NCBI GenBank assembly: GCA_964354195.1
Contig: CAYGYN010000044.1
Coordinates: forward strand, 10,655 to 34,654
Length of the DNA: 24,000 nt
Direction of reading: 5' to 3'
Source: Candidatus Woesearchaeota archaeon
GTDB lineage: Archaea; Nanobdellota; Nanobdellia; Pacearchaeales; GW2011-AR1
Below are positions 1,480-15,582 of the stretch, in pieces (within the stretch, counting starts at the first letter, position 1; each line of letters starts with the position of its first letter). The position numbers were made by a program, and so were the translations under genes. A model generated the notes under the pieces. It was given only the letters and a program-made list of their open reading frames with translations. It did no database searches and was not told where the DNA came from.

Positions 1480-1499
1480 GCGTACATAATATAGTACTG

Positions 1500-3625: not shown

Positions 3626-3681
3626 ATATTTGCCCCTTCTGCGTTAGATAATTAACTAAATTCACATGGAGGAAAAACAAA

Positions 3682-4204: not shown

Positions 4205-4522
4205 TTATTTTTGTTTTAGCTTCTTAAACTCAAGTTCGCTTAGTTCAGTTTTCCTGTCAAGATATCTCTTGATAGGGTCTAGTTTATCCTGCATGTACAT
4301 TCCAAAAAGAGCAAACGCAGTGGCGCCTCCAACTCTGCACAAGTCACCGATATAATAATGCTGCTCAAAGAAATCATAGTGCCTTGTTATTTCTCCTCCG
4401 GCAATAGCGCCTGCACCTGCACCCACGAGCCCGAAAGCAATCATCACAAGAGTAGAATATTTCTCAGCTCTATGCCTTAATTTTTTTGCTATTTCTTCTT
4501 TCTCAAGTTCCTCACTAGTCAT
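4205..4522 (-). CDS. Small two-TM membrane protein with glycine-zipper helix
   Basis: 105 aa. Hydrophobic segments LVMIAFGLVGAGAGAIAGG and VGGATAFALFGMYM, with charged coiled termini. TTTATAAA (4544-4551) lies 29 nt upstream of the ATG. The gene sits directly downstream of the giant gene. Confidence 0.6.
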   Translation of the reverse strand: MTSEELEKEEIAKKLRHRAEKYSTLVMIAFGLVGAGAGAIAGGEITRHYDFFEQHYYIGDLCRVGGATAFALFGMYMQDKLDPIKRYLDRKTELSELEFKKLKQK

Positions 4523-4543
4523 CTAATACAGATTGAATGAGAA

Positions 4544-4551
4544 TTTATAAA
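4544..4551 (-). promoter_or_regulatory. TATA box for the 4522 CDS
   Basis: TTTATAAA, 29 nt upstream of the ATG at 4522. Confidence 0.45.
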
Positions 4552-4574
4552 CAAAATTATATTCTAAAATATAC

Positions 4575-7500
4575 TTAGTTCTTCTTCACCGCCCTCGAGT
4601 AAATTGTCCAGACATTTCTCTGGTCTCTGTCAACAAGTTCTGCAATCTCGCTGAATTTCATTCCTCTTCCCTTAAGATAGACTATTACCGCTTCAAGCAC
4701 AGTGTACTTTCTGTCTCCAAGTATCGAAGAAGGTATGAATATCTCTGTCTTTCCAACATATATCTTCTCCTTTCTCTTCTCCTGTGCTTTGTGGCAGGCT
4801 GTCCAGATTGTCCTCTCATTCCTGTTCAATGCAAGTGCAATCTCATGATAGCTCATTCCAAGATTCTCCTTCATGTACTTGCAAAGAGTTTCGAGAGCTC
4901 CAATTTCTTTGGAGAATATTGTAACTGGAATATTCATTCTTTCTGATTCACTAATCTCTTGAGTTTCTCTCTCAGAAATATCTCTTATAGCTTCCTCAAG
5001 CACCCCAACTTTTTCCAACTCATTTCTCTTTCTCAAATCAGCTTTTATCTTCAGCAGGCCCTCAACCAGGTTCTTTCTGCGTTTCTTCTTCCTATTTCTC
5101 CCACCTGCAAGAGCAAATCCAACAATAAGTATCTTGATTGTCCACGAGCCTTCATTCGCTGTTGAGTATGCCTGCCCGATGAGCTCGCTTCCCGCTTTCC
5201 TTATGCAGAAATAAAGTTGTTCCTGTCCTGTGCTCCCGTCATTGACTGTAAAGTTCCCGCGGGGCAAAAATGCGTCTGTTATGCTTACATAAGCAGAGGG
5301 AGATAATGTTGTTGCTCCGCATTCAGCATTTCCTCCAGTCGCAATTCCAACAGAAAAGTTATTTGCAAACAATGCAAGAAGACTATTGCTCTCTCCATTC
5401 AGGTTCGTTGAGTTTATCTGTATATTTCCAAGAGAGATATTCTGGTTTCCAGTGTTATTCAGGACAATAGGATCATTTGTTGCCGTCTGGTTCACAGCTC
5501 CAGGTGTCAATGAACTAAACGCAAGAGCGCTTGGCGAAGCCACAAATCCAGTAAGCGCATTAACAGTAAAGTAAGTTGAGATGTTTGTAGCCGCAGAACT
5601 GCTCAAGTCCGACACAGAAGCAGTTACATTCCATGCTCCTGCTCCATCAAACCAATACATTTGCACATTACAACTGTAATTGACATAATTTCCAATAGTG
5701 TTAATCTTCGCACAACTCAGATTAGTTCTAAGAGCCTCTCCATCTCTTGTAAAATTAGCCATTGCAGAAGAATCATTCAAATCCGCAGCACCATCGGCAT
5801 CATAAGCTGTGAAATTAACATTAACAGTCGTTGACGCGGGTCCTTCATTCAAATCCACAGCAGGAATTGCGCTCACATAGGTTATCTGAGGAGCTTGATT
5901 AACTGCTCCGAGGTTCACTTTTATAGTCCAGTTATCATTCGCAAATGCAGAATAGCTCTCGTTGTCTCTCGCTTCGCAATTCCAGAGATAAGTTCCATTA
6001 GCAATTCCATTCAATGGGAAAGATGCGCTCATTGATGAATTCGAAGAAAGAGAATTAGTATACATATTCACAATTTCCTGCTCACTTAATGCCCTGTTGA
6101 ATATTGCAACTTCATCTATTGCTCCCGAGAAAGGTCTTCTGCTTGTGCTTGACGTAGAAATAGGCCATATTCTTCCGTTTCCAACAACAAGAGGCAATGT
6201 AGACTGCAATATTGGTCCGCTGAAAGGATTATTTACCGGGAAGTTGGCGCCTGCTCCGTCCTGACTCCCATTCACATAAATAGACACAGTTGTTCCATTA
6301 TATCTCCCGACAACAAAAATCCACTGTCCCTCAGGGAATGTGCCGTTATAATTTGATTCTACCGCGCTGCCTGAAGAATTCCACACCCTGAAGAAAACAG
6401 AAGGTCTTGAACGGTCCACTGCAAGATAATAGCTTGATGAAGAAGCTGAAACAGCAATCTTGTCAAGAATTCTTGCATTTGCGTTATATGTATTGTTAAA
6501 GTTGTTTGCACTCGGCTTTATCCAGGCAGTCACTGTTATTGAACTGCCCATATTGCTCAAAGCAGGATTATCATTTGCATAAAGCGCATTTGGACTGCCA
6601 AAAATATATGCATTTGTTCCCGGGAAAACCCCTGTCTGATTCATTACAGGGCAGAATGACGACGATTCGTTTGAATTGCAATAAACATGATTGCCCAAGC
6701 CGGAAGAATCTGCATAATACGTCAAGTTCTCCCCCAAAAGAGAGTCATTGTTCATATGCAGCCAGAATACCATTGACGAATCATATGAATACTCGCCAGC
6801 ATATGCTATTCTTGTAAGATTCCAAACCCCGCTTGTATTTGTATAAAGGCTTATGTTAGACATTCTATTGACAGTTGTTGCATTGCACTGGAAAGTTATG
6901 TTGCCTGTTGTGCTTGTAGTGCCATTTGGAGGCGAAAGAAGACTTGTCCATATTTGTAAAGGGATAATTGTAAGATTATTCGAGCTCAATGTGCTTCCAT
7001 CCTGATACCCATCATTTGGCGTGACTTGGCAGCTCCAAATATCCCACAAAAATAGCTCGCTGCTGACAATAGTGTTTGTTTTATTTCGGTAAATAGTTCC
7101 AATCTCCTGCGAGGAGAGAGTATAATTAAATATAAGCACGTCATCTATCTCTCCATTGAAGAAATTATTCCAAGGCTGATGCCAGCCTATTCTTGTTCCA
7201 TTTAATCCAGTCAGTGGTGAACCGTTATAACTTCCTATCGCGGCAATACCATTAGAAGCATCAATTCCATCAACATAAATCCTAAAATTAGAAGAAGTTA
7301 CTGCCTGTCCTGATGTTGAATTGAAAACTCCAACTATGAAATGCCAGTTTCCATCATTCACAGTTCTGTTGGCATTAAGCCCTATCCATATTGCATCGGA
7401 ATCCAAGCCTATTGCAGGCACACCTGCTGAAGAATTTGTGCAATAGCTTCCTGGCACACTATTACAAAGAGGACCAATAGCCAAAGTTAAGCTCTTTCCA

Positions 7501-10500
7501 AGCCCGCTTCCCCTGTCATTGATTATAACTCCCTGATTTGCAGATGTCTTGACCCAAGCCGCCAAAGTATATTGCGTGGTTGAATTCTGAACAAAAGGAG
7601 AGATTATTGAACTATTTACCCCGTTGAACTTGTAATCTCCCTTCCCATCATATCCTCCTGTTGAGTTCCAGACAGCCCTGGAAACAACACCATTGTTCCC
7701 AAGCGAATAATCTTTTGTCCAAGTTGAAGTGCTTCCGCCCTCAAACGGCATATTAAGAACAATTATTGATTGGTTATTTAAGTACCAATTATAAATATTC
7801 TTCACTGAATCATTCTCCAAATCAGAAGTGCTTTGATTATAACATGTTAGATTCTCATTTACAGTATTAGTCCCGTAAGTCGAGCTCAAAATCGGTGGAG
7901 TTTGTGTTGGAGGGAAGTTTGGCGCAAGAGCATTGTAAGTTACATTGAAATAAAAGACATCCCAATAAGCAGTGCCTGTTCCAAATGCAGAGCCCCTAAG
8001 CTCTGATTTCATCTGGCTTCTGTTTCCTGAAGCGCCAAAGAAGTTTGAGCATTGCCAGTTCTTCAGAGCAGTCACATTTCGGCAGATTACCCCTGGATTT
8101 GCTGTTATTCCAGGGCAGGTGGAGTTGATTACTGTAAAATTAGTCCCGTTTTGATTGTCAATTGAAATATTGCAGTCAGAAGTTGAAGAAGTTGAAGCCC
8201 ACCATTCAAAGCAGGCAAGCACTTGTGTTATGTTTGAGCAGTTTGTATTTGTTGAATTGAATTCCATTATCTTCACTCCCCCATAACCTCCATTGTTGTA
8301 TCTCTGTGTCTCATAGAACCCATCATTGCATGTCAGCAAGTCAGCCCCTGAACCGCACGCGCTCGGATAAACGCCATCACAGGCAGAGCCGAACGAACCC
8401 TTGGCAGCCCTTTCCTCGGCAACACAGCTGCTCGTTCCCTCTCTAAATCCAGGGTCAGTTGTATTCATGGTGAAATTATAAGTTCCATCTGCAAGCAATG
8501 CGGCATAGGGTGTCCAAATCTCGTCAACGCATGTGCTTGTCGTAAAATTCCAGTTTATGCACTTCTCAAGGATTCTGAAACCTTCTGTTTCCTCGGGCAG
8601 AGACGTGCCATCCGCAACGATAGTAAAGTCAGTGTTATTGATTCGGGGATATACGGAGAATGAGAAATTCTGGGATGCATTTGCCTGGGAAATATCTATA
8701 ATGCTAGTTATGTTTGAGCTTAAATTAAACCCAAGAATATCAATTGTGTTGATAGTGTGATTAACAGGAGCGACATATATGTCATATATGCCTGTTGCAA
8801 GATTGACAGTGTGATTTATCATTGTCTGATTATAAACAACACTTGAAGTTATGTTTGTTATCCTGAGTGTTGCATTTATCCCATTATTCAGAGGGTCATT
8901 GATGGTTATTGTAAAAGTTACATTTTGTATAGGCGCCTGAGTCCCATTTCCAATTGTCAGGTTGTTTGAATTCTTTGTAATTCCGTCATTCTTCCCGTCA
9001 TTCGGAGTTACAGAACATGTCCAGTTCTGCCCTATAGAAAGTTCCTGGCTGACAATTAAATCTGTTCTGCTACTATACAATGCTTGAATTTGCTGTGCTG
9101 ATAAAGTTTTATTATAAATTCTTATGTCATCAATGCTTCCTGTAAATTTTTGTCCTGTCTGGTACTTGTCTCCAATACCCAGCCCATTTGTGTCATCATA
9201 CGTTCCGATTGGTCCATTAAGTGTTGAATTGCCAACTTCCACCCCATTGATATACAATCTCGCTATTGAGCCGTCATAAGTTCCTGCTGCAAAATACCAT
9301 GTATTATCATTGATTGTTTCTGAATTAACACGAGCTGCATCACTAGCATTAGTTACCTTAAATCTGATTATGTTGGTTGTCCCATTAAATTCAAAACCAT
9401 AAACCCCATATGGAGATATATCATTATTTCCATACCATACTATCTTGGCATAAGAGTTTTGGGTGCCGTTTCTTTTAAACCACGCTGCAATAGTTAGATT
9501 ATAAGTTGGTTCTAGATTATCAGAGCTGCCAACAGTTATAAGGTTAGTAATGCCATCAAAACGATAAGCTCCCTTTCCATTATATCCTCCTGTTGAATTC
9601 CATACAGCTCCTGAAACATTTCCATTGTTGCTTAACCCTGAATAATCCTTTGTGTAAGTTGAATTGCTTCCTCCCTCAAAAGGCATGTTCAAAACTTCAT
9701 AAGCCCTGTTATTCAATTTCCAACTGAAAATGTTCTTCACAGAATCCCCGTCAGCGTCATAGGTTGATTTATTGTAGCAAGTCAGGTTCTCACTTGTCAA
9801 ATTAGTCCCAAAAGTTGAATTCAAAATTGGCGTGCTTTGAGTGGGCAGGGTATTTGCGCAGTTATAAGTATATTCTGTGATATTCCCGAAAACAAATTGA
9901 AGAGTGTGATTGCCTCCAGTCAGAACCTTGCTTGTTTCATATCCGCTCTGATTGTCGCAAGTATAATTGAAATAGTGCACGCTGTTAGTTTCGTTAAGCC
10001 ATGTGTAATTCATGGTAGTATTCCCGCACCTTAACTCAAGGAACTGCAAGTCCCCTGACTCATTAAGATACCATGTTGTTCCATTCGATGCAGTTATTGT
10101 AAGATTTGCCTGTCCTGTTGTGTTAAATCCAACTGTCCAGTTTCCATCCACATATGGATAGCTGTAAAGATTGAGTATTATGAGCTGAAGTTCATATGTC
10201 TGGTTTGAGAGATGTTCAACATTCCACTCAATGTAATCAATCAAGCCATTCTCATTCATGTCAGCTGTTGTGAAATTAACGCTCTCTTTTGTTTCATTAA
10301 CCAGATGATAAAGTCTTATCATATCTGGAGAGGCTTCATAAGGCAGTTCACTAAAAGCAGTTATATCTGTATAGTTTAATTCATCAGGGGCTGAGATAGT
10401 TATAATTTTTCCGCTGCTTGTCTCTTCTTCAAAAGCCTCAGGCGCAGGAGTTTCGTAAGAAATCTCATACTGAGTTGCGTTATCCTCAAGACTGACTTCA

Positions 10501-11930
10501 ACAGGCTGCAAAGATTCATTTTGCTCCTCAGAAATAACTCTTCCTGTGAATCCTCTGCCAAATATGCCTTTTATGAAATCCCATAATCTGCTTATAATTC
10601 CATTTCCTTCGTTATCAGAAACAGCTAATCCTGTCACAAAAGCTCTTGCCTGCTCAGGCTTCTCAGTTTGTTCATCAATCTTGTTGACAGAGACATTCTC
10701 AGCCAAAGGCGGAAGCTCGATTGTTATTTCAGCAGGATTTTCGAGTTCAACAACCTTCTTCCATTTGACAGGCTGTCCCACTCTTATTTTCCCGACCTTT
10801 GAAGTGGTTATTGAGACATTTGTCTCGTTTGTTGTAATGTTCTCGGCAAGAGTCACATTCTCGGAGATAGTTAAATCTTCAAGAGGAACAAAAGGAATCA
10901 AGCCATATTCCAATCCAGTTAGTTTTAATCTTGCATTGTCAAGCTCAATCCTCAGGTTATAGAACTCTTTTGTGAGGTTTAATCCAGCCAAGTCGCAGGT
11001 TTCTTCACATATGCTATTAAACTCTCTCAGAGTTATTTCCTGAGTTGTTTCTTCCACAGAGGTTTTATTTTCTTCTGTTATATTTTCAGAAACAGGAGGA
11101 GTCACCTGCTGGGAAATGCTCTCGTTTTGAGGTGTTCCTCCTCCTGTTTGCTCTGAAGATGAAGGTTCTGAGGGCGTAGTTTCTGTAGTTGTTTCTTCTT
11201 CTGTTGGAATCGTTGGTTCTTGTTCTGATGGGGTTCCAGTTGGAGTTTCTGTAGTTGTTTCACTAGGTGTCTCAGTTGGAGTTTCACTTGGACTTTCTTG
11301 GGAGGATTCAGTTGAATCGGAGGAGGACGAATCTGAAGAAGAATCGGAATCGCCGGATGAATCTGATGATGAATCTGAAGAATCAGAGCTTGAATCAGAA
11401 TCAGATGATGAATCAGAAGAACCAGAATCTCCTTCCAATGCAAAACCAGTTATTGTGGTTCTTCTTTTTGCAATATTTGTGCTGTCAACCACAAGCAAAT
11501 TATCAAGATAAATCTTTATCTCTCCGTCTCCTGCAATCAATCCAGACAACTTGACAAAATCAAGTGTCCCATTTTCCTTAAGCGTGAATTCATAGCTCCC
11601 CGAATTATTGAAAACAACATCTGGAGTTTCAAAATAAGTCTTTGCATTTTCCTTTACCACAAACAAATTGAAGCTGGGACTGAAAAAGAAAAAGCTTGCT
11701 ATAAGAATTAAAAAAACCCCTATAAAACCAAAGCGAATCATAGTCTTCTTGTGCTTCTCATATTCCTCAAGAATTATCTGCTGCTGCCAGAGCCTGTGCC
11801 TATTTTCTTCTATCTGCTGTTTATGATAATCAGCAAGCGCCTGGTCTGGGTCATTAATGTATTTCCTAGAATCTTCTATTCTTCTTGAAAGTTCTTCGAT
11901 TAAAACTCTCGCTACGCGAGCATTTCCCAT
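4575..11930 (-). CDS. Giant (2,451 aa) two-pass surface protein: N-terminal cytoplasmic helix, TM, LamG-rich glycoprotein ectodomain, TM, cytoplasmic tandem-HTH tail
   Basis: A single uninterrupted 7,356-nt ORF. TTTATAAG lies 30 nt upstream of the ATG. Domain evidence is listed in the sub-features below. Confidence 0.9.
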   Translation of the reverse strand: MGNARVARVLIEELSRRIEDSRKYINDPDQALADYHKQQIEENRHRLWQQQIILEEYEKHKKTMIRFGFIGVFLILIASFFFFSPSFNLFVVKENAKTYFETPDVVFNNSGSYEFTLKENGTLDFVKLSGLIAGDGEIKIYLDNLLVVDSTNIAKRRTTITGFALEGDSGSSDSSSDSDSSSDSSDSSSDSSGDSDSSSDSSSSDSTESSQESPSETPTETPSETTTETPTGTPSEQEPTIPTEEETTTETTPSEPSSSEQTGGGTPQNESISQQVTPPVSENITEENKTSVEETTQEITLREFNSICEETCDLAGLNLTKEFYNLRIELDNARLKLTGLEYGLIPFVPLEDLTISENVTLAENITTNETNVSITTSKVGKIRVGQPVKWKKVVELENPAEITIELPPLAENVSVNKIDEQTEKPEQARAFVTGLAVSDNEGNGIISRLWDFIKGIFGRGFTGRVISEEQNESLQPVEVSLEDNATQYEISYETPAPEAFEEETSSGKIITISAPDELNYTDITAFSELPYEASPDMIRLYHLVNETKESVNFTTADMNENGLIDYIEWNVEHLSNQTYELQLIILNLYSYPYVDGNWTVGFNTTGQANLTITASNGTTWYLNESGDLQFLELRCGNTTMNYTWLNETNSVHYFNYTCDNQSGYETSKVLTGGNHTLQFVFGNITEYTYNCANTLPTQSTPILNSTFGTNLTSENLTCYNKSTYDADGDSVKNIFSWKLNNRAYEVLNMPFEGGSNSTYTKDYSGLSNNGNVSGAVWNSTGGYNGKGAYRFDGITNLITVGSSDNLEPTYNLTIAAWFKRNGTQNSYAKIVWYGNNDISPYGVYGFEFNGTTNIIRFKVTNASDAARVNSETINDNTWYFAAGTYDGSIARLYINGVEVGNSTLNGPIGTYDDTNGLGIGDKYQTGQKFTGSIDDIRIYNKTLSAQQIQALYSSRTDLIVSQELSIGQNWTCSVTPNDGKNDGITKNSNNLTIGNGTQAPIQNVTFTITINDPLNNGINATLRITNITSSVVYNQTMINHTVNLATGIYDIYVAPVNHTINTIDILGFNLSSNITSIIDISQANASQNFSFSVYPRINNTDFTIVADGTSLPEETEGFRILEKCINWNFTTSTCVDEIWTPYAALLADGTYNFTMNTTDPGFREGTSSCVAEERAAKGSFGSACDGVYPSACGSGADLLTCNDGFYETQRYNNGGYGGVKIMEFNSTNTNCSNITQVLACFEWWASTSSTSDCNISIDNQNGTNFTVINSTCPGITANPGVICRNVTALKNWQCSNFFGASGNRSQMKSELRGSAFGTGTAYWDVFYFNVTYNALAPNFPPTQTPPILSSTYGTNTVNENLTCYNQSTSDLENDSVKNIYNWYLNNQSIIVLNMPFEGGSTSTWTKDYSLGNNGVVSRAVWNSTGGYDGKGDYKFNGVNSSIISPFVQNSTTQYTLAAWVKTSANQGVIINDRGSGLGKSLTLAIGPLCNSVPGSYCTNSSAGVPAIGLDSDAIWIGLNANRTVNDGNWHFIVGVFNSTSGQAVTSSNFRIYVDGIDASNGIAAIGSYNGSPLTGLNGTRIGWHQPWNNFFNGEIDDVLIFNYTLSSQEIGTIYRNKTNTIVSSELFLWDIWSCQVTPNDGYQDGSTLSSNNLTIIPLQIWTSLLSPPNGTTSTTGNITFQCNATTVNRMSNISLYTNTSGVWNLTRIAYAGEYSYDSSMVFWLHMNNDSLLGENLTYYADSSGLGNHVYCNSNESSSFCPVMNQTGVFPGTNAYIFGSPNALYANDNPALSNMGSSITVTAWIKPSANNFNNTYNANARILDKIAVSASSSSYYLAVDRSRPSVFFRVWNSSGSAVESNYNGTFPEGQWIFVVGRYNGTTVSIYVNGSQDGAGANFPVNNPFSGPILQSTLPLVVGNGRIWPISTSSTSRRPFSGAIDEVAIFNRALSEQEIVNMYTNSLSSNSSMSASFPLNGIANGTYLWNCEARDNESYSAFANDNWTIKVNLGAVNQAPQITYVSAIPAVDLNEGPASTTVNVNFTAYDADGAADLNDSSAMANFTRDGEALRTNLSCAKINTIGNYVNYSCNVQMYWFDGAGAWNVTASVSDLSSSAATNISTYFTVNALTGFVASPSALAFSSLTPGAVNQTATNDPIVLNNTGNQNISLGNIQINSTNLNGESNSLLALFANNFSVGIATGGNAECGATTLSPSAYVSITDAFLPRGNFTVNDGSTGQEQLYFCIRKAGSELIGQAYSTANEGSWTIKILIVGFALAGGRNRKKKRRKNLVEGLLKIKADLRKRNELEKVGVLEEAIRDISERETQEISESERMNIPVTIFSKEIGALETLCKYMKENLGMSYHEIALALNRNERTIWTACHKAQEKRKEKIYVGKTEIFIPSSILGDRKYTVLEAVIVYLKGRGMKFSEIAELVDRDQRNVWTIYSRAVKKN
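4578..5099 (-). other. Cytoplasmic C-terminal tail of the giant protein (res 2278-2451) with two tandem sigma-70 region 4 / LuxR-like HTH repeats
   Basis: The tail starts with the stop-transfer cluster RNRKKKRRK and a charged helix. Repeat A (nt 4767-4898): ALETLCKYMKENLGMSYHEIALALNRNERTIWTACHKAQEKRKE. Repeat B (nt 4578-4706): YTVLEAVIVYLKGRGMKFSEIAELVDRDQRNVWTIYSRAVKKN. Both fit the pattern (hydrophobic)x(Y/F)xEIAxxLxRxxRT/NVWTxxxxA. There are no N-X-S/T sequons in the tail. Confidence 0.6.
5100..5150 (-). other. Second transmembrane segment of the giant protein (GSWTIKILIVGFALAGG)
   Basis: Short hydrophobic stretch immediately followed by nine basic residues in ten (RNRKKKRRKN). Coordinates were checked codon by codon against the reverse complement. 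Confidence 0.6.
5139..5894 (-). repeat. Membrane-proximal 252-aa two-domain module of the giant protein (res 2013-2264), paralogous to 14263-15036
   Basis: APQITYVSAIPAVDLNEGPASTTVNVNF...PRGNFTVNDGSTGQEQLYFCIRKAGSELIGQAYS...WTIKI aligns end to end with residues 54-311 of the 311-aa protein, ~60% aa identity by eye. Identical nucleotide runs include GTTGTTGCTCCGCATTCA and ATTCTGGTTTCCAGTGTT. Confidence 0.85.
5907..6947 (-). other. LamG (concanavalin-A-like lectin, Laminin_G_3-type) module 3, nested in a split beta-sandwich
   Basis: Res 1662-2008. Flank SPPNGTTSTTGNITFQCNA...; core SSITVTAWIKP...GQWIFVVGRYNGTTVSIYVNG...FSGAIDEVAIFNRALSEQEIVNMY; closing strand GTYLWNCEARDNESYSAFANDNWTIKV. Confidence 0.7.
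6966..7913 (-). other. LamG module 2 nested in a split beta-sandwich
   Basis: Res 1340-1655. PPTQTPPILSSTYGTNTVNENLTCYNQSTSDLENDSVKNIYNWYL...LNMPFEGGS...YTLAAWVK...GNWHFIVGVF...FNGEIDDVLIFNYTLSSQEIGTIY...WSCQVTPNDGYQDGSTLSSNNLTI. Confidence 0.75.
8031..8573 (-). other. Cys-rich central domain of the giant protein (12 Cys in ~180 aa)
   Basis: Res ~1120-1300. Cys at 1124, 1134, 1169, 1184, 1192, 1201, 1231, 1240, 1253, 1272, 1283 and 1294 by my indexing. No family recognised. Confidence 0.5.
8961..9848 (-). other. LamG module 1 nested in a split beta-sandwich
   Basis: Res 695-990. LPTQSTPILNSTFGTNLTSENLTCYNKSTYDADGDSVKNIFSWKL...LNMPFEGGS...AYRFDG...LTIAAWFK...NTWYFAAGTYDGSIARLYINGVEVG...FTGSIDDIRIYNKTLSAQQIQALY...WTCSVTPNDGKNDGITKNSNNLTI. 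The first ~100 aa are ~65% identical to module 2 by eye. Confidence 0.8.
11145..11429 (-). repeat. Low-complexity acidic linker: Ser/Asp repeats (res 168-207) then Thr/Glu/Pro repeats (res 208-262)
   Basis: GDSGSSDSSSDSDSSSDSSDSSSDSSGDSDSSSDSSSSD followed by ESPSETPTETPSETTTETPTGTPSEQEPTIPTEEETTTETTPSEP. The DNA is an imperfect GAATC(N)GA(N) tri/hexanucleotide repeat. Alternative-frame ORFs here are artefacts. Confidence 0.85.
11673..11738 (-). other. First transmembrane segment of the giant protein (IRFGFIGVFLILIASFFFFSPS)
   Basis: Res 65-86. It is preceded by a 64-aa charged helical segment ending in KHKKTM (positive-inside rule), and no A-x-A cleavage site follows. Confidence 0.65.
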
Positions 11931-11991
11931 ACTTATCTTGTATGTAAATATACTTATAAATCTATTGGTAATACCTATTATTTATGTAATA
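11928..11991 (-). repeat. Promoter-plus-start-codon repeat copy R1 (functional promoter of the giant gene)
   Basis: CATACTTATCTTGTATGTAAATATACTTATAAATCTATTGGTAATACCTATTATTTATGTAATA. It contains the ATG (11930-11928) and the TATA (11953-11960). About 85% identical to R2, which lies 95 bp upstream. Confidence 0.8.
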
Positions 11992-12022
11992 ATATGAGAT
12001 AGGCTATTTGCCAATTAACATC

Positions 12023-12087
12023 CATACCTATCTTGTATGTAAAAGCCCTTTATAAATTTATTGATAATACCTATTATTTATGTAATA
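12023..12087 (-). repeat. Promoter-plus-start-codon repeat copy R2 (duplicated promoter driving a 15-codon micro-ORF)
   Basis: CATACCTATCTTGTATGTAAAAGCCCTTTATAAATTTATTGATAATACCTATTATTTATGTAATA. It has TTTATAAA at 12049-12056 and an ATG at 12025-12023. That ATG opens MDVNWQIAYLILLHK* (12025..11978). Confidence 0.8.
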
Positions 12088-12141
12088 GCCATGCAAAGAG
12101 TTATTTAACAGTTAGATAGCACAAAACACTAAAAATCGAAA

Positions 12142-13656
12142 TCACTGCTCAAATTTTTCAAGATATTCAGAAGCCTTGCCATCCACAACCATTACTTCCT
12201 TTATTGAATGCACATTGCTGTGCCTCACAAGCGCGTTCTTTTTGTTCAAGTTCTTCGCAATGTGCGGCTCAAGCGCAATCAGCCAGCCATATATCTTGTT
12301 ATCCTCAAGATAAACTTCACTCACATGCCCTAGTTTGTTCCCATTCATCCCATATACCCGCAAATTCATTGCATCTGTGAGCCCATTCAGTTTTCCCTTG
12401 TGCTTTCTCTTCGCTCCAGCCCCAATAACTCCTCTCTCAAGCAGAGGAATCAGATATCTCACCAGAACAATTGAAATAAGACTAGCAAGCAATGCAATCA
12501 CAAGCATTATCCAGAACAAGTCTATCCAGTTTATTGCAAATACAGTTGTTACAGGGGCAGGCTTTTCCTCCTGTACTTCATCAACATCGCACCTGCCATT
12601 CTGATTTGCATCAAGACAGCATTCTAATCCTCGGGGTATGTAAGGAGAACTGCAGCTTGCGCACGCAATGATTCCTGTCTCGCCTTCACTCTGATTAATG
12701 CATTCAATTATCTGAGGCTGGGAATAATTTGTCTGATAAACTACCCTGGTGCCTCCGCCTCCACCGCCGCCAACAGTCACTATCACAACAGGTTCAGGCG
12801 ATTCATCAGCAGAATAATTCGAAAATCCAGTTACTCTGAATCTTAAATTTCCGGATGAATAATCTTCTTTGGTGCAAATGCTATCTGGGCAAACAACGCC
12901 ATTCCTCAATATTCTTGGATTTGTGAAATTCAATCCATAAAGCCATAATGTTGAAGAAACATTGAAATTAGGCAGCTCGTCAGCATTTAATTCAATCCTA
13001 TTGAATAATATATTCACATTGTTCTCAACGTCAACCACTCCGTCAAAATTATGGTCCTTATCATCAGTCACATTCAAACAATCGTCAAACTCTATTTTTC
13101 CATAATTAACATCTTCAAGAATAGTGTTGCAGAAATTCTGCAAATCTTCAAATGTATATGTATAGAAATCTGTTGAGCCTCCGCTGAAAGATGTCTTGAA
13201 TTCCCCCAGGTAGATAATTCTCAACAGCGTTGTATTGACAACAAACTGCAATCCCTCGCTAGTCTGCCCCTGGCTGTTGTTTGCATAAACCCTGATAATA
13301 TGGGTTCCATCTCCAGCAGTGAAATGAAGAGAATGGGGTATATTTGGGATATAGGTGTCTGCTGAGCCATCAAGAACATACCACGCATCATAAGCGCTGT
13401 AAACACTATAATTCAAAAGCAAACTTTCATTTATGTAAGTTCCGTTCTTAGGGGAATAGATAATTACCCCTGGAAGGCTTACAACATAAACCCTCAAATC
13501 AACAGGCTGTTCTGTCGCCTCACCTGTAACCGAAACGCTGCCAGTTATGCCTGCGCGCGAGCCATTCTCAACAACCAATATTGCAGATGCATAAGAACTG
13601 GAAATAATTAAAAAAACAATTGCTAAAAACAGCGATAAAATCAAATACCTCTTCAT
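12142..13656 (-). CDS. Type-I surface glycoprotein with C-terminal TM helix and cytoplasmic PRC-barrel domain
   Basis: Start refined to the ATG at 13656 (MKRYLILSLFLAIVFLIISSSYASA signal). The ORF-track start is a TTG 4 codons upstream, and an ATTTAAAT box lies 30 nt upstream of the ATG. The ectodomain is sequon-rich with a Gly7 linker and a Cys cluster (CINQ...CASCSS...CCLDANQNGRCD). TM helix LFWIMLVIALLASLISIVLVRYLIPLL (12439-12519). The 98-aa tail LNGLTDAMNLRVYGMNGNKLGHVSEVYLEDNKIYGWLIALEP...VMVVDG (12181-12390) fits the PRC-barrel pattern. Confidence 0.85.
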   Translation of the reverse strand: MKRYLILSLFLAIVFLIISSSYASAILVVENGSRAGITGSVSVTGEATEQPVDLRVYVVSLPGVIIYSPKNGTYINESLLLNYSVYSAYDAWYVLDGSADTYIPNIPHSLHFTAGDGTHIIRVYANNSQGQTSEGLQFVVNTTLLRIIYLGEFKTSFSGGSTDFYTYTFEDLQNFCNTILEDVNYGKIEFDDCLNVTDDKDHNFDGVVDVENNVNILFNRIELNADELPNFNVSSTLWLYGLNFTNPRILRNGVVCPDSICTKEDYSSGNLRFRVTGFSNYSADESPEPVVIVTVGGGGGGGTRVVYQTNYSQPQIIECINQSEGETGIIACASCSSPYIPRGLECCLDANQNGRCDVDEVQEEKPAPVTTVFAINWIDLFWIMLVIALLASLISIVLVRYLIPLLERGVIGAGAKRKHKGKLNGLTDAMNLRVYGMNGNKLGHVSEVYLEDNKIYGWLIALEPHIAKNLNKKNALVRHSNVHSIKEVMVVDGKASEYLEKFEQ

Positions 13657-13679
13657 AAAAATATCCAAGCAACTATATT

Positions 13680-13687
13680 ATTTAAAT
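13680..13687 (-). promoter_or_regulatory. TATA-like box (ATTTAAAT) for the 13656 CDS, possibly an internal promoter
   Basis: Lies 30 nt upstream of the ATG at 13656, in the 44-nt gap after the upstream gene. Confidence 0.4.
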
Positions 13688-13700
13688 CTATATTCGAGAG

Positions 13701-14258
13701 TTAATTTTGTTCCTGCTTCTTTCTCTTGTTCAATGCCACAACGATTATTGCCATGACAAGAATTGCAGCTCCGACAACAAGATATAATGTCCAGTTTGTC
13801 TTTTCAACAGGAATCACTGACTCTTCTTCATTGACCACAAAAACAGGCAGTCTTGTCGAGATGCTGCTGCCTATTCCTACAGCACCGCCAGTCAATCCGC
13901 TCTGCACTGTCTTGAAAGTAAACTCAACAGGATAATTTCCACCTATCTTGCTATCGCTCGGCACGCTGATTCTCACATTCATTGCAGCTTCTCCGCCCGC
14001 AGGCACATTATAAGCCTTGTTTTCATCAGTTATCGTCGTAACATCCGAGCCCTGAGAGACTTCAGCATCCAAAACAACAGGATCCACTCCCGCATTGTTC
14101 TTCAGCACAATCTGCAAATCAACTGTTTGTCCAGGTGCAATCCTCAATGGATTCTCAGACCAATAAGGCGTTGAGACTGCAAATGCATAAACTCCATTTA
14201 TCATTAAGATAGTCACAACTAACAATATTCCCGCTGCGATATAGTTTTTAGTTTTCAT
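13701..14258 (-). CDS. Small type-I surface protein: signal peptide, single Ig-like (CARDB/DUF11-like) domain, C-terminal TM anchor
   Basis: Signal peptide YIAAGILLVVTILMINGVYAFA. Beta-rich domain (PGQTVDLQIVLKNNAG...YNVPAGGEAAMNVRISVPSDSKIGGNYPVEFTF). Anchor WTLYLVVGAAILVMAIIVVAL followed by NKRKKQEQN. The ATG lies 1 nt after the upstream stop, indicating an operon. Confidence 0.8.
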   Translation of the reverse strand: MKTKNYIAAGILLVVTILMINGVYAFAVSTPYWSENPLRIAPGQTVDLQIVLKNNAGVDPVVLDAEVSQGSDVTTITDENKAYNVPAGGEAAMNVRISVPSDSKIGGNYPVEFTFKTVQSGLTGGAVGIGSSISTRLPVFVVNEEESVIPVEKTNWTLYLVVGAAILVMAIIVVALNKRKKQEQN

Positions 14259-14259
14259 T

Positions 14260-15195
14260 TTATGATATCTTCAACGTCCATGCTCTAGAGGCTGAGTCTG
14301 ATGAATATGCCTGTGCTGTAAGTTCAGAACCAACTTTCTTTATGCAGAAGTATACTTGCTCCTGCCCCGTTGAGCCGTCATTGACTGTGAAATTCCCTCT
14401 TGGTAAAGTCGCGCTGCCTATCGCAGTGTATACTGAAGGAGCCATGGTTGTTGCTCCGCATTCAACAGGAGGAGAACCCCCAGTAGTTACGCCAACACTG
14501 AAGTTATTGGAATAGATTTTTCTATTGGCATCTAACTCTCCAAGAAGGTCAGTGGTATTCAACTGAACATTTCCTGCTGTAATATTCTGGTTTCCAGTGT
14601 TGTTTAATACAATTGGATCATTTGTAGAAGTCTGATTCACGCTTCCAGGAGTTAACGATGCCCATGTCAGAGAAGCCGGCGAAGATACAAATCCAGTAAG
14701 CGCATTAATTGTGAATGTAGTAGAAACATTTGAAGCAGCAGAATTGCTTAAGTCCTTCACAAATACAGTCACATTCCAGGTTCCTGAGCCATCAAACCAG
14801 TACATAGGCACGCTGCAAGTGTAATTAACTGTAGTCGCAGTACTGCCCGCATTGGTGCATGAAACAGCCCTTACAACTTCTCCAGCCCTTGTAAAGTTAA
14901 CCATCGCAGAACTATCATTCAAATTCCCTGCCCCGTCAGCATCACTTGCCACGAAGCTCATAACTACTGTAGTGCTTGTAGGCCCTTCATTCAAATTCAC
15001 CGCGCTTATAGCAGAAACAGAAGCAATTGTTGGAGCAGTGTTTGATATTGTGACATTAACATTTACGCTTTGCTGTGTTACTTTCCCAGTTATCTTTCCA
15101 AACCAGTCAAACATCCCGGCAGACGCAAATGACGAGACTAATAATACAGAAGCTAGAACCACAACAAAAACAAGCGTTCCTCTTTTCGCATTCAT
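14260..15195 (-). CDS. Secreted two-domain protein, paralog of the giant protein's membrane-proximal module (no anchor)
   Basis: Signal peptide MNAKRGTLVFVVVLASVLLVSSFASAG. Residues 54-311 align with giant-protein residues 2013-2264. The protein ends (WTLKIS*) exactly where the giant protein enters its TM helix. TTTATAAA lies 29 nt upstream of the ATG. Confidence 0.85.
   Translation of the reverse strand: MNAKRGTLVFVVVLASVLLVSSFASAGMFDWFGKITGKVTQQSVNVNVTISNTAPTIASVSAISAVNLNEGPTSTTVVMSFVASDADGAGNLNDSSAMVNFTRAGEVVRAVSCTNAGSTATTVNYTCSVPMYWFDGSGTWNVTVFVKDLSNSAASNVSTTFTINALTGFVSSPASLTWASLTPGSVNQTSTNDPIVLNNTGNQNITAGNVQLNTTDLLGELDANRKIYSNNFSVGVTTGGSPPVECGATTMAPSVYTAIGSATLPRGNFTVNDGSTGQEQVYFCIKKVGSELTAQAYSSDSASRAWTLKIS
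14263..15036 (-). repeat. Paralogous copy of the 5139-5894 module
   Basis: See 5139-5894. Same orientation, ~9.1 kb away, with nucleotide similarity clearly visible by eye. Confidence 0.85.
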
Positions 15196-15216: not shown

Positions 15217-15224
15217 TTTATAAA
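15217..15224 (-). promoter_or_regulatory. TATA box (TTTATAAA) for the 15195 operon
   Basis: 29 nt upstream of the ATG at 15195. Confidence 0.5.
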
Positions 15225-15467
15225 CATTTCTCTGATACTATATAGGTTTTGATTTGCTCTCTTTTATTTGCTCTTTACTATTAATTCTGACTCGCTCTTG
15301 TCTTGAAGCTTCTCATCTGCGTTAAATACTATTAATTCGGATTCACCTTCACTGCGGGCTCCATTTAAAGGAAGATGACGTGTCAAGAAACCTTGGTTTT
15401 GAACCATCAGCAGATGCAATAGAAGGAGGGGTGACATATCAGGGGAACTATGAGTTCCCTTATATAA

Positions 15468-15539: not shown

Positions 15540-15582
15540 AAAACTATTAAATAACTGGCTTTTTTAATACTATTTATAAGAG

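What the first reader, a model, noticed from the sequence alone, without database searches (positions are those of the whole stretch)
4205..15195. Eleven-kb co-oriented surface-apparatus cluster abutting tRNA-Arg
Five consecutive minus-strand genes run in this order. First is a secreted module protein (311 aa). Next is a type-I Ig-like protein (185 aa) whose ATG lies 1 nt after the previous stop. Then comes the TM + PRC-barrel protein (504 aa) after a 44-nt gap, then the giant TM-LamG-TM-HTH protein after a 211-nt gap carrying a duplicated promoter. Last is a 2-TM glycine-zipper protein (105 aa) after a 52-nt gap. None is an enzyme and all are envelope proteins. The cluster starts 272 bp from the 3' end of a tRNA gene, a classic island position. 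I found no integrase and no tRNA-derived direct repeat. Taken together, it may be a dedicated contact, adhesion and signalling system. That function is inference.
Basis: inference. Interest (0 to 1): 0.75.

Follow-up and report, generated by a model that had tools for sequence, protein, structure and literature searches.

The report
Self-regulating giant surface protein cassette
In a tiny symbiotic-type (DPANN) archaeon, a huge sugar-coated surface protein carries its own DNA-binding switch on its inner tail. That switch appears to control the protein's own gene, and the gene travels with three helper surface proteins as a conserved set, not as a mobile island.

Summary
The five minus-strand genes, their gaps, the duplicated promoter and the nearby tRNA-Arg are all real. 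The "island" reading fails: composition matches the flanks, close relatives keep the same housekeeping neighbours, and the tRNA differs or is absent. Four genes (giant, Mod, Ig-TM, third protein) form a cassette conserved across more than 100 Nanoarchaeota/Pacearchaeota/Woesearchaeota loci. The 105-aa gene is only a lineage-specific neighbour.

The giant is a hairpin-anchored glycoprotein with three LamG domains. Its cytoplasmic C-terminal tail is a tandem sigma-70-region-4 HTH. Its leaderless promoter carries paired 17-bp operators (TACATA-N5-TAAGTA), one upstream of the TATA box and one abutting the ATG. This architecture recurs in 45 loci, and operator half-sites covary with one residue in each HTH recognition helix. 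In some genomes the HTH is a separate adjacent gene. I infer a membrane-tethered autoregulator.

Mod is a free copy of the giant's membrane-proximal module, and the two evolve in concert (68% identity within genomes, about 39% between). The third protein contains a Nup98/Nup145-like autoproteolytic domain with a conserved Phe-Ser/Thr site.

Adhesion, autocleavage and contact signalling remain inference. This is a new variant of transmembrane transcription regulators.

The parts
14260..15195 (-). Mod (311 aa). A secreted two-beta-sandwich protein with no anchor. It is a free paralog of the giant's membrane-proximal module. It has a conserved but unstructured N-terminal extension (GMFDWFGKITGK...).
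   Evidence: Signal peptide. 62% identity to giant aa 2002-2267. AF2 pLDDT 91.9, with low confidence for aa 22-55. Family of 69 proteins, DPANN only. G37 is invariant.
15217..15224 (-). TATA-like box (TTTATAAA) about 26 nt upstream of the mod311 ATG. It is the inferred leaderless promoter of mod311-ig185-prc. No operator motif is present here.
   Evidence: Sequence read. No operator match outside the giant promoter.
13701..14258 (-). IG (185 aa). Signal peptide, one Ig-like domain, and a C-terminal TM anchor plus KRKK. Translationally coupled to Mod (1-nt gap).
   Evidence: It always follows Mod in relatives. Mod-IG pairs occur as tandem arrays in L007, L038, L039 and L044.
12142..13656 (-). 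Third protein ('PRCE', 504 aa). Order of parts: signal peptide, Ig domain, Nup98-like autoproteolytic domain, poly-Gly linker, Cys-rich segment, TM, cytoplasmic PRC barrel.
12787..13221 (-). Nup98/Nup145-APD-like (peptidase S59 / ZU5-superfamily) domain, aa 146-290. The putative scissile bond F278|S279 is encoded at 12820-12825.
   Evidence: Pfam PF04096 in homolog P0093 at E 1.1e-6, above the cutoff. The domain profile hits only Nup116 and Nup145 in the PDB. Foldseek hits 3nf5, 3kep and 5hb6 at TM about 0.5. P1 is Phe in 43/46 and P1' is Ser/Thr in 42/46.
12160..12363 (-). Cytoplasmic PRC-barrel domain (aa ~432-499), preceded by a TM helix (aa ~377-407, 12430-12528). It is present only in the window's sub-lineage.
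   Evidence: PF05239 at E 9.2e-5. Present only in L002-L004-type relatives; elsewhere it is replaced by 2 CARDB-like domains, a TM and a short basic tail.
11927..12087 (-). Giant-gene control region. A tandemly duplicated 95-96-bp promoter unit. Each unit has the order distal operator, TATA box, proximal operator.
   Evidence: (repeat families D7, D10).
11930..11946 (-). Proximal operator of the functional promoter (TACATACAAGATAAGTA). Its last base is the A of the giant's ATG.
   Evidence: The same position is seen in 22 non-redundant loci.
11953..11960 (-). TATA box (TTTATAAG), centred about 27 nt upstream of the giant's ATG. This implies a leaderless transcript.
   Evidence: Sequence. The same layout is seen in relatives.
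11972..11988 (-). Distal operator of the functional promoter (TACATAAATAATAGGTA).
12025..12041 (-). Proximal operator of the duplicated upstream promoter copy. It is followed by a decayed 7-codon remnant of the gene start.
12068..12084 (-). Distal operator of the duplicated upstream promoter copy. The TATA box of this copy is at 12049-12056.
4575..11930 (-). Giant protein (2451 aa). Order of parts: N-terminal cytoplasmic helical segment, TM1, ~2170-aa glycosylated ectodomain, short TM2, cytoplasmic tandem HTH.
   Evidence: All 116 N-X-S/T sequons lie in aa 90-2267.
11667..11930 (-). Giant N-terminal cytoplasmic segment (aa 1-63) plus signal-anchor TM1 (aa 64-88).
   Evidence: It is conserved across orthologs.
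11070..11432 (-). Ser/Asp/Thr/Pro-rich low-complexity linker of the giant (aa ~167-287).
   Evidence: Translation. Coordinates.
9084..9590 (-). LamG domain 1 (aa ~781-949).
   Evidence: PF13385, best stretch 795-949. Landmarks.
7113..7658 (-). LamG domain 2 (aa ~1425-1606).
   Evidence: PF13385 has 3 stretches. Internal repeat D5. Landmarks.
6084..6620 (-). LamG domain 3 (aa ~1771-1949).
   Evidence: PF02210 at 1832-1943 and PF13385. Landmarks.
5130..5927 (-). Cmod. The giant's membrane-proximal module (aa 2002-2267), paralogous to Mod.
   Evidence: DNA repeats D1-D3 and D8. Concerted evolution.
5073..5129 (-). Short hydrophobic stop-transfer segment plus polybasic run (ILIVGFALAGG-RNRKKKRRK, aa 2268-2286). 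This is the inferred TM2.
   Evidence: The median hydrophobic span is 10 residues across 38 orthologs.
4770..4931 (-). HTH1 (aa 2334-2387), sigma-70 region-4 type, with recognition helix '...NERTIWTAC...'.
   Evidence: PF08281 hits. Typing.
4578..4736 (-). HTH2 (aa 2399-2451), sigma-70 region-4 type, with recognition helix '...DQRNVWTIY...'.
4205..4522 (-). g105. A small Gly-rich membrane protein with its own TATA box. It is a neighbour whose membership in the system is not supported.
   Evidence: A homolog is found only in L003. No Pfam hit. Promoter read.

Best explanation
This is a conserved surface-protein cassette of Nanoarchaeota-type DPANN archaea, built around a giant glycoprotein that is also its own transcription regulator.

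Shown:
- The giant has an N-terminal signal anchor and a ~2170-aa sequon-rich ectodomain. The ectodomain holds a conserved N-terminal region, a variable LamG lectin region and a conserved membrane-proximal module (Cmod).
- After Cmod comes a short hydrophobic plus polybasic segment, then a C-terminal tandem sigma-70-region-4 HTH.
- The giant's promoter has a TATA box about 27 nt before the ATG, so the transcript is leaderless.
- That TATA box is flanked by two copies of a 17-bp imperfect inverted repeat, TACATA-N5-TAAGTA. One copy lies upstream and one ends at the ATG.
- Operator half-sites covary with one recognition-helix residue in each HTH.

Inferred:
- The tail stays cytoplasmic and membrane-tethered, and each HTH reads one half-site.
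- Occupancy of the TSS-overlapping operator blocks RNA polymerase recruitment. The completed, inserted giant therefore represses its own gene.
- In most genomes this also represses the downstream Mod, IG and third-protein genes.
- The tail is synthesised last, next to a gene held at the membrane by co-translational insertion, so the feedback may act largely in cis.
- On the outside, the free Mod (anchored through the Ig-TM protein) co-assembles homotypically with the giant's Cmod. This would explain why the two are kept alike by gene conversion.
- The third protein probably self-cleaves at Phe278|Ser279 into two non-covalently held chains, as Nup98-Nup96 does.
- The LamG array is the likely host- or glycan-binding end.
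For: Cassette conservation:
- The order giant > Mod > IG > third protein occurs in 26 full and many truncated genome loci.
- It directly follows the tail in 27 of 41 new metagenome loci that have enough downstream sequence.
- The window lineage is a cyclic permutation of that order.

HTH tail:
- All 42 tails match PF08281, best E 3e-14.
- Weak PDB profile hits are to an archaeal transcription regulator, sigma-H and RcsB.

Topology:
- 116 of 116 sequons lie in aa 90-2267, with none in the N-terminal segment or the tail.

Fission variants:
- In L028, L030, L037 and L055 the giant ends right after Cmod, and a soluble HTHx2 gene overlaps its start.
- In L067-L070, stand-alone HTHx2 genes abut other giants.

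Operators:
- 4 in the window against 0.07 expected.
- 54 of 76 sites lie in the 2% of sequence upstream of giant/HTH genes, p about 1e-73.
- A site abuts the start codon in 22 non-redundant loci.

Covariation:
- All 39 loci with Asn in HTH2 have TACATA as the left half-site. This includes 23 held-out loci.
- All 5 regulators without that Asn have TACTTA.
- The T/T loci L028 and L070 have symmetric TACTTA..TAAGTA sites.
- The N/N locus L057 has symmetric TACATA..TATGTA.

Mod and Cmod:
- 62% identity in the window.
- Within-genome mean identity is 68%, against a between-genome median of about 39%.

APD-like domain:
-.

Background knowledge (not tested here):
- Archaeal repressors typically bind between TATA/BRE and the TSS, and activators bind upstream of BRE.
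Against: - No experiment or transcript data are available. DNA binding by the tail, the direction of regulation and membrane tethering are all inferred.
- The putative TM2 is very short. The median is 10 hydrophobic residues, or 14 counting the preceding strand. The way the chain crosses the membrane is therefore uncertain, and the segment could be a processing site.
- The covariation rests on few independent switches. The non-Asn cases are all stand-alone regulators and may form one clade. No phylogeny-aware test was done.
- In the window lineage, Mod-IG-PRC have their own promoter without operators. Co-regulation of the four genes does not apply here.
- The S59-like domain lacks the P2 His of Nup98 in 41 of 46 members. 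Autocleavage is unproven.
- The Mod model gives only generic Ig-tandem fold matches. The nature of any Mod-Cmod assembly is unknown.
Confidence: 0.65

Rival explanations
1. Contact-triggered release (Notch/SREBP-like). The tethered HTH is inactive or sequestered at the membrane. Host binding by the LamG ectodomain, or force-induced dissociation at the autoproteolytic module or cleavage near the short TM2, frees the tail. The freed tail then acts on the operators.
For: - The hairpin topology places both termini in the cytoplasm.
- A Nup98/ZU5/GPS-superfamily autoproteolytic domain is present in the partner protein.
- The unusually short TM2 plus polybasic run resembles a sorting or processing signal.
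- Soluble HTHx2 versions exist, so tethering is not needed for function.
Against: - No protease gene is consistently linked to the cassette.
- The autoproteolytic domain is in a different protein from the HTH.
- There is no evidence that the giant is cleaved.
- The operator position over the TSS fits simple autorepression without any release step.
Confidence: 0.15
2. Surface filament or lattice. Mod is the major subunit of a donor-strand-type fibre or an S-layer-like lattice. The giant's Cmod is its nucleating or anchoring subunit, and IG and the third protein are anchor or assembly factors. The HTH only sets expression level.
For: - Mod has a conserved N-terminal extension with an invariant Gly that is not folded in the model.
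- Mod and Cmod evolve in concert, as expected for interchangeable subunits.
- Mod-IG pairs can be tandemly amplified.
- Archaeal threads and bundling pili use a major subunit plus a similar cap (PMC9715654).
Against: - Both beta-sandwich domains are modelled as complete at pLDDT 96-98, with no evident acceptor groove.
- Foldseek returns no pilin, TasA or thread hits, only generic Ig tandems.
- Multimer prediction was not possible.
- This reading is compatible with the best explanation rather than exclusive of it.
Confidence: 0.2
3. Genomic island or mobile element inserted next to tRNA-Arg.
For: - The cluster is 272 bp from a tRNA.
- The cassette lies in different genomic contexts in distant relatives.
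Against: - GC is flat. The tetranucleotide correlation of cluster against flanks is 0.905, against 0.921 for flank against flank.
- Relatives at 73% and 57% identity keep the same flanking genes but have tRNA-Ser or no tRNA.
- There is no integrase and no tRNA-derived direct repeat.
- The cassette is near-universal in the clade and absent from viral contigs.
Confidence: 0.03
4. The repeated 17-bp motif is a lineage-specific core-promoter or initiator element for highly expressed leaderless genes, or the target of some other regulator. It is not bound by the giant's HTH tail.
For: - The motif is AT-rich and sits in core-promoter space.
- 22 of 76 sites lie elsewhere. One example is an array in L030 near two winged-HTH-like genes.
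Against: - The motif is absent from the mod311 and g105 leaderless promoters in the same window.
- It tracks giant/HTH genes specifically.
- Its half-sites change together with HTH recognition-helix residues.
- In fission variants it moves to the front of the HTH gene.
Confidence: 0.08

Closest known systems
Transmembrane transcription regulators (one-component membrane-bound TFs such as ToxR, TcpP and CadC in bacteria, and ArnR/ArnR1 in Sulfolobus; survey PMC10269533, PMC6396743)
   Same: - A DNA-binding HTH and a membrane span are in one polypeptide.
- An extracytoplasmic domain is coupled to a cytoplasmic DNA-binding domain.
- The protein likely acts at promoters from the membrane.
   Different: - The DNA-binding domain is C-terminal and is a tandem sigma-70-region-4 pair.
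- The protein is a 2-TM hairpin whose 'sensor' is a ~2170-aa glycosylated LamG adhesin-like ectodomain.
- It regulates its own gene through operators flanking the TATA box.
- The HTH can be split off as an adjacent gene.
- The survey paper does not mention DPANN or this architecture.
Nup98/Nup145N/Nup116 autoproteolytic domain (peptidase S59; ZU5/GPS/Nup98 superfamily, PMC3482391)
   Same: - Fold match to 3nf5, 3kep and 5hb6.
- Shared N-terminal 'YGKIEF' motif and C-terminal 'F-x-V-x-x-F|S/T-x-Y' motif.
- The nucleophile Ser/Thr follows a Phe.
   Different: - It is extracellular, in an archaeal surface protein.
- The P2 His is mostly absent.
- It is followed by a poly-Gly linker and a membrane anchor instead of Nup96.
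- It belongs to a large family of about 3,300 representative proteins, many of them giant and multi-copy.
- Cleavage is untested.
DPANN giant and LamG surface proteins (nanohaloarchaeal SPEARE-type giants and LamG proteins; Mia14 LamG locus; PMC10266531, PMC5498576)
   Same: - Very large membrane-anchored, Ig/LamG-rich proteins.
- They are presumed to mediate host recognition.
- They have a cytoplasm-facing terminal domain.
   Different: - Those giants carry a VirB4/TraG-like ATPase rather than an HTH.
- No Mod/IG/APD partner set and no operator architecture has been described for them.
- They come from a different DPANN phylum.
Eukaryotic membrane-tethered transcription factors (Notch; SREBP hairpin)
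   Same: - A large adhesive ectodomain or hairpin topology with a cytoplasmic transcription-factor domain.
- An associated autoproteolytic, non-covalently held module in the system.
   Different: - There is no homology.
- No evidence of regulated intramembrane proteolysis.
- The comparison is functional analogy only (from my own knowledge).
Archaeal donor-strand filaments (Sulfolobus threads Saci_0406/0405; bundling pili) and two-component S-layers (SlaA/SlaB)
   Same: - Secreted, glycosylated beta-sandwich subunit with an N-terminal extension.
- A similar-fold partner encoded next to it.
- A small membrane-anchored partner.
   Different: - No fold or sequence match.
- No acceptor groove is evident.
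- The paralogous module is embedded in a giant TF-bearing protein.

Membership tests
Transmembrane transcription regulator (TTR) | DNA-binding domain and at least one transmembrane segment in the same polypeptide | tested here: met
   PF08281 HTH x2 in the tail. TM1 is clear. TM2 is short but conserved and followed by a polybasic run.
Transmembrane transcription regulator (TTR) | DNA-binding domain cytoplasmic, sensor domain extracytoplasmic | tested here: met
   Sequon distribution is 116 in the ectodomain and 0 in the tail and N-terminal segment. The paralog Mod has a signal peptide. The stand-alone HTH versions have no TM-like hydrophobic segment and so no signal peptide; their sequences are shown.
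Transmembrane transcription regulator (TTR) | Binds target promoter DNA and regulates transcription while membrane-bound | not testable with these tools
   Only indirect evidence is available: operator conservation and HTH/half-site covariation.
Sigma-70 region 4 / LuxR-type HTH (PF08281 clan) | Profile match above the curated threshold | tested here: met
   The window tail scores 36.1 bits against a cutoff of 25.7. All 42 members match, best E 3.1e-14.
Peptidase S59 (Nup98/Nup145 autoproteolytic domain) | Sequence-profile membership (PF04096 above the gathering score) | tested here: inconclusive
   Homolog P0093 passes (29.2 against 28.4 bits, E 1.1e-6). P0110 and P0075 are sub-threshold. The window protein itself has no hit. 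The family profile hits only Nup116 (E 0.003) and Nup145 in the PDB.
Peptidase S59 (Nup98/Nup145 autoproteolytic domain) | APD fold | tested here: met
   The AF2 model has pLDDT above 90 over aa 63-290. Foldseek hits 3nf5, 3kep and 5hb6 at probability 1.00 and TM 0.46-0.53 over the whole ~140-aa targets.
Peptidase S59 (Nup98/Nup145 autoproteolytic domain) | Nucleophilic Ser/Thr at P1' after Phe at P1 (HF|S motif) | tested here: met
   P1 is Phe in 43/46. P1' is Ser in 30, Thr in 12, Ala in 3 and Gly in 1. The +2 Tyr is present in 45/46.
Peptidase S59 (Nup98/Nup145 autoproteolytic domain) | His at P2 | tested here: not met
   His is present in only 5 of 46 members. The window protein has Gly.
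Peptidase S59 (Nup98/Nup145 autoproteolytic domain) | Actual autocleavage with the fragments remaining associated | not testable with these tools
   This needs protein expression and mass spectrometry.
Genomic island at a tRNA | Compositional deviation from the flanks | tested here: not met
   GC is about 0.40 throughout. Tetranucleotide r is 0.905 for cluster against flanks and 0.921 for flank against flank.
Genomic island at a tRNA | Integrase/recombinase and a tRNA-derived direct repeat | tested here: not met
   No such Pfam hit in the ten flanking ORFs scanned, which cover 463-4185 and 15583-21980; the ORFs at 21980-23047 and 23073-23825 were not scanned. No tRNA-derived repeat.
Genomic island at a tRNA | Presence/absence polymorphism at the same tRNA in relatives | tested here: not met
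   L002 and L004 keep the cassette and the same flanks but have tRNA-Ser or no tRNA. The cassette is near-universal in the clade.
Donor-strand-complemented filament (threads / bundling pili / chaperone-usher type) | N-terminal donor strand on the subunit | tested here: inconclusive
   There is a conserved N-terminal extension with low pLDDT and an invariant Gly37. There is no evidence that it inserts into another subunit.
Donor-strand-complemented filament (threads / bundling pili / chaperone-usher type) | Incomplete beta-sandwich with an acceptor groove; fold similarity to known pilins | tested here: not met
LamG / concanavalin-A-like lectin domain | Profile match | tested here: met
   PF13385 at E 1.7e-65 with 3 stretches. 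PF02210 at E 2.7e-9.
PRC-barrel domain | Profile match | tested here: met
   PF05239 scores 22.8 bits against a cutoff of 21.2. The homolog P0075 has E 7e-6. JGI labels P0071 and P0072 as PRC-barrel proteins.

The most novel reading that the evidence does not exclude
The cassette is a contact-sensing device of an episymbiotic archaeon. The LamG end of the giant binds a host surface glycan. Mechanical load is transmitted to the membrane-proximal Mod/Cmod/IG base and to the non-covalently held, self-cleaved Nup98-like module. This changes the state of the tethered tandem HTH, by release or by altered operator occupancy, and so switches the cassette on or off. That would make it an archaeal analogue of Notch or adhesion-GPCR signalling. 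It would use a domain previously discussed mainly for nuclear pores, and it would come with a readable, predictable operator code (Thr reads TACTTA, Asn reads TACATA).
Probability: 0.15. Interest if true: 0.9.

Novelty: new variant of a known kind. Interest (0 to 1): 0.74.

Why it matters
- DPANN archaea are almost entirely uncultivated. How they recognise hosts and regulate their few genes is an open question.
- This analysis gives a concrete, testable regulatory circuit in that group. It names a transcription-factor module, its 17-bp operator, a specificity rule and its target, which is the cell's largest surface protein.
- Fusing a regulator to a giant adhesin-like protein appears to be the rule in this clade. 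The fusion can be covalent or take the form of an adjacent gene.
- The analysis uncovers a large archaeal family of Nup98/ZU5-type autoproteolytic domains on cell-surface proteins.
- It also documents concerted evolution between a free module and its embedded copy, which points to a homotypic surface assembly.
- Each of these can be tested with recombinant fragments, without cultivating the organism.

Tried and rejected
- Island hypothesis: rejected on composition, synteny, tRNA identity and the absence of an integrase or repeats.
- Source genome: identification failed. Only a 2.4-kb Logan contig was found. No source gives names for these proteins. P0070 is not on record.
- Alignment A1 was too diverse for locus scanning, so I used the 15-sequence A2 instead.
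- Mod fold search gave only generic tandem-Ig hits such as Fab, RbmA, integrin and tapasin, with no specific family.
- Pfam scanning of the conserved N-terminal 750 aa of 25 giants found no shared family.
- g105 as a system member: rejected for lack of conservation beyond L003.
- PRC barrel as a core feature: rejected, because it is confined to the window's sub-lineage.
- Internal translation start for a free tail: the Met before HTH1 is not conserved.
- Literature searches found no prior description of HTH-bearing DPANN giants or their operators.
- Multimer structure prediction (Mod-Cmod-IG, or tail plus DNA) could not be run with the tools available.

Full report
**Observation.** The window belongs to a DPANN archaeon.
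- The flanking genes are GatD, TrmB, GatE/B, deoxyhypusine synthase and UPP synthase.
- All homologs of the cluster proteins come from Nanoarchaeota, Pacearchaeota or Woesearchaeota MAGs.
- tRNA-Arg(TCG) is at 15467-15540.
- The 211-nt gap holds a tandemly duplicated 95-96-bp segment.
- Co-orientation means little on its own, because 14 of 17 genes in the window are on the minus strand.

**Not an island.**
- GC is flat at about 0.40.
- Tetranucleotide usage of the cluster correlates with the flanks at r = 0.905. The two flanks correlate with each other at r = 0.921.
- Relatives whose Mod protein is 73% and 57% identical keep the same neighbours (amino-acid permease, GatB, DHS). At the tRNA-Arg position they have tRNA-Ser(GGA) or no tRNA.
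- I found no integrase and no tRNA-derived repeat, and no relative on viral contigs.

**A conserved four-gene cassette.**
- A genome scan with a Mod alignment returned 59 loci. I classified their ORFs with phmmer.
- The dominant order is giant (with Cmod and HTH tail) > Mod (~310 aa) > IG (~190 aa) > third protein (~560 aa). It occurs in 26 complete cases and many truncated ones.
- The window's lineage (L002-L004) is a cyclic permutation: Mod > IG > third protein > giant.
- A later metagenome scan with the tail profile gave 80 further loci. Of the 41 with at least 3.5 kb downstream, 27 have Mod > IG > third protein directly after the tail, and most of the others have partial or HTH-first versions.
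- g105 has a homolog only in the closest relative and has its own TATA box. I treat it as a neighbour.

**Anatomy of the giant.**
- The protein is 2451 aa. It begins with a helical N-terminal segment of about 63 aa, then a clear TM.
- Next comes a Ser/Asp/Thr-rich linker, a region conserved among orthologs that matches no Pfam family, and three LamG domains (PF13385, E 1.7e-65).
- The membrane-proximal module (Cmod, aa 2002-2267) is 62% identical to Mod.
- After Cmod comes ILIVGFALAGG-RNRKKKRRK, then a 174-aa tail with two HTH repeats.
- All 116 N-X-S/T sequons lie between aa 90 and 2267 (5.3 per 100 aa). None lies in the N-terminal segment or the tail. Housekeeping proteins in the window have 0-1 per 100 aa. 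This supports a hairpin topology with both ends in the cytoplasm.
- The second span is oddly short. Across 38 orthologs the median is 10 hydrophobic residues (range 7-27), followed by 5-10 Lys/Arg. I leave this unexplained.

**The tail is a DNA-binding module tied to giants.**
- All 42 aligned tails match Sigma70_r4_2, best E 3e-14.
- In L028, L030, L037 and L055 the giant ends exactly where Mod ends (W-x-I-x-I-x-stop), with no TM2. A soluble 164-197-aa HTHx2 gene overlaps the giant's start.
- Other stand-alone HTHx2 genes (P0186, P0180, P0177) also abut giant ORFs, before or after them with 4-nt overlaps. L069 has two such pairs in tandem.
- The pairing of a giant with a dedicated tandem HTH is therefore general in this clade, whether fused or split.

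**Operators.**
- The window's duplicated promoter resolves into four copies of TTACATA-N4-ATAGGTAT, all in the giant's upstream region. Chance expectation is 0.07.
- Each promoter unit reads: operator, TTTATAA(G/A), operator. The proximal operator's last base is the A of the ATG. The TATA box is centred about 27 nt upstream, so the mRNA should be leaderless.
- The same layout appears upstream of giant genes in relatives whose Mod is only about 40% identical.
- Across 62 non-redundant loci (840 kb), 54 of 76 sites matching TAC[AT]TA-N5-TA[AT]GTA with at most 1 mismatch lie within 250 nt upstream of a giant or HTH gene. That space is 2% of the sequence, so 1.5 would be expected (binomial p about 1e-73). 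In 22 loci a site abuts the start codon.
- In fission variants the pair sits in front of the HTH gene.
- Operator number varies: 2 is usual, the window has 4, L017 has 5-6 and L069 has about 8. L009 shows an independent tandem duplication of the unit.

**Covariation.**
- The recognition helices read R-T-I-W in HTH1 and R-N-I-W in HTH2 in 121 of 136 typed tails.
- All 39 such loci with a captured promoter have an asymmetric operator with TACATA on the left and TA(A/G)GTA on the right. This includes 23 loci fetched after the rule was formulated.
- The two T/T regulators (L028, L070) have symmetric TACTTA-N5-TAAGTA.
- The N/N regulator (L057) has symmetric TACATA-N5-TATGTA.
- Regulators with another residue in place of the Asn (L137, and the two in L069) also have TACTTA on the left.
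- The simplest reading is that each HTH contacts one half-site: Thr-type reads TACTTA and Asn-type reads TACATA.
- The number of independent switches is small, and I did not correct for phylogeny. I treat this as strong circumstantial evidence, not proof.

**Inferred mechanism.**
- In archaea, factors bound between TATA/BRE and the TSS generally block polymerase recruitment, and factors bound upstream of BRE can activate (established knowledge). A site over the TSS therefore suggests autorepression by the completed giant. The upstream site may add cooperativity or a second mode.
- The HTH is the last part synthesised. The gene is likely held at the membrane by co-translational insertion, so feedback could act in cis. 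This step is inference.
- In the canonical gene order the three partner genes follow within 20-40 nt and would share this control. In the window they have a separate operator-free promoter.

**Mod and Cmod.**
- The Mod model is confident (pLDDT 91.9) and shows two beta-sandwich domains. A conserved N-terminal extension is not folded in the model.
- Fold search returns only generic Ig tandems.
- In 35 genomes, Mod and Cmod of the same genome average 68% identity, and reach 96%. Mod-Mod, Cmod-Cmod and Mod-Cmod comparisons between genomes all have medians near 39%.
- That is concerted evolution, most simply by gene conversion. It argues that the free and embedded modules must stay matched, as expected for homotypic co-assembly.
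- IG is a tail-anchored Ig protein translationally coupled to Mod. It could tether Mod much as TM2 tethers Cmod.
- Whether the assembly is a ring, a lattice or a fibre cannot be decided here.

**The third protein.**
- Its N-terminal 300 aa are conserved. Its C-terminal part is either two CARDB-like domains plus a TM (most genomes) or a Cys-rich segment, a TM and a PRC barrel (the window's lineage).
- Several homologs hit PF04096, the Nup98 autopeptidase. One is above the curated cutoff.
- A profile of the domain alone hits only Nup116 (E 0.003) and Nup145 in the whole PDB.
- The AF2 model is confident over aa 63-290. Foldseek recovers 3nf5, 3kep and 5hb6 at TM about 0.5 over the full target domains.
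- The window's 'RFRVTGF|SNYSADE' aligns with Nup98's 'WVFKVSHF|SKYGL'. P1 is Phe in 43/46, P1' is Ser/Thr in 42/46 and the +2 Tyr is present in 45/46. The P2 His is present in only 5/46.
- Aravind and colleagues place Nup98-APD, ZU5 and GPS in one autopeptidase superfamily that also occurs in bacterial surface proteins (PMC3482391).
- An exhaustive profile search finds about 3,270 representative proteins with this archaeal-type domain. Many are giants with several copies.
- Autocleavage is plausible but untested.

**Comparison with known systems and novelty.**
- Membrane-bound one-component regulators are a recognised, widespread class (PMC10269533; ArnR, PMC6396743).
- LamG-rich and giant surface proteins are known in DPANN as presumed host-recognition factors (PMC10266531, PMC5498576).
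- Several things appear to be undescribed in the library I could search:
  - the fusion or adjacency of a tandem sigma-4 HTH with giant surface proteins as a clade-wide rule;
  - the conserved operator architecture with a specificity rule;
  - the Mod/IG/APD partner set;
  - the concerted evolution of Mod and Cmod.
- I classify the finding as a new variant of a known kind.

**Verdict.**
- The island idea is rejected.
- Interest is high for archaeal and DPANN biology, because the circuit is directly testable with recombinant fragments.

Noticed in passing
window 15084-15125 (mod311 aa ~24-37); 13519-13548 (prc aa ~37-46); giant aa ~170-176, ~428-434, ~470-476: A short motif [ILV]-T-G-x-[AV] follows the N-terminal hydrophobic segment in three of the four cassette proteins. 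It occurs in Mod 56/62, the third protein 34/43 and the giant 18/34. It is absent from IG (0/66) and present in 16/213 other TM-bearing ORFs. In Mod the Gly is invariant yet lies in an unfolded extension. It may be a processing, sorting or strand-donation signal.
   Followed up: partly
window 5073-5129 (giant aa 2268-2286): The membrane span before the HTH tail is unusually short. The median is 10 hydrophobic residues in 38 orthologs. It often ends in I-P-[AGS] and is always followed by 5-10 Lys/Arg. It resembles a tripartite sorting signal, but about 186 further residues follow it.
   Followed up: partly
window 18398-19249 and 19299-20048 (minus strand): Two adjacent paralogous ORFs (283 and 249 aa) have no Pfam hit. 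They share an N-terminus, MKIEV.L..K + hydrophobic + GFVGVYAY. Both are Cys-rich and have 2.1-2.4 sequons per 100 aa. They are probably further surface or pilin-like proteins.
   Followed up: no
L009 3490-3740: There is an independent tandem duplication of the giant's promoter/operator unit, partly masked by Ns. Here both operators lie downstream of the TATA box. Operator copy number varies widely between genomes, from 2 to about 8.
   Followed up: partly
L030 18033-18887: An ~850-nt intergenic region holds about 8 operator-like sites in ~175-nt repeats. It lies between two minus-strand ORFs with winged-HTH-like C-termini, far from the giant. The regulon may extend beyond giant genes.
   Followed up: no
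L005 10001-20978: This is a variant cassette: Mod > IG > a 733-aa protein > a 65-aa ORF > a 1453-aa giant with a weak PRC-barrel hit instead of the HTH. It is followed by MoxR-type AAA ATPase, DUF58 and VWA genes.
   Followed up: no
L038 6067-11576; L039 5211-11721: Three to four tandem Mod-IG gene pairs are followed, about 2-4 kb downstream of the last pair, by a LamG-rich giant fragment that runs off the end of the locus and in which no Cmod or HTH tail was detected. This suggests Mod-IG is an amplifiable two-gene unit.
   Followed up: no
P0192-P0326: The archaeal Nup98-APD-like domain occurs in about 3,270 representative proteins. These include giants of 2,000-7,646 aa with up to 11 partial copies. 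The repeats mostly cover the C-terminal half of the domain.
   Followed up: no
L013 14345-14576; L017 13815-14213; L040 13718-13886; L043 12667-12833: In four loci with the canonical gene order, tRNA-Cys(GCA) and tRNA-Arg(TCT) lie 0.5-1.1 kb downstream of the cassette on the opposite strand; PRCE was detected in three of the four, not in L043. This looks like sub-clade synteny rather than an integration site.
   Followed up: no
window 12022-12045: The upstream promoter copy retains the start of the gene as a decayed 7-codon ORF (ATGGATGTTAATTGGCAAATAG). L003 has only one promoter unit, so the duplication is recent and specific to this genome.
   Followed up: yes
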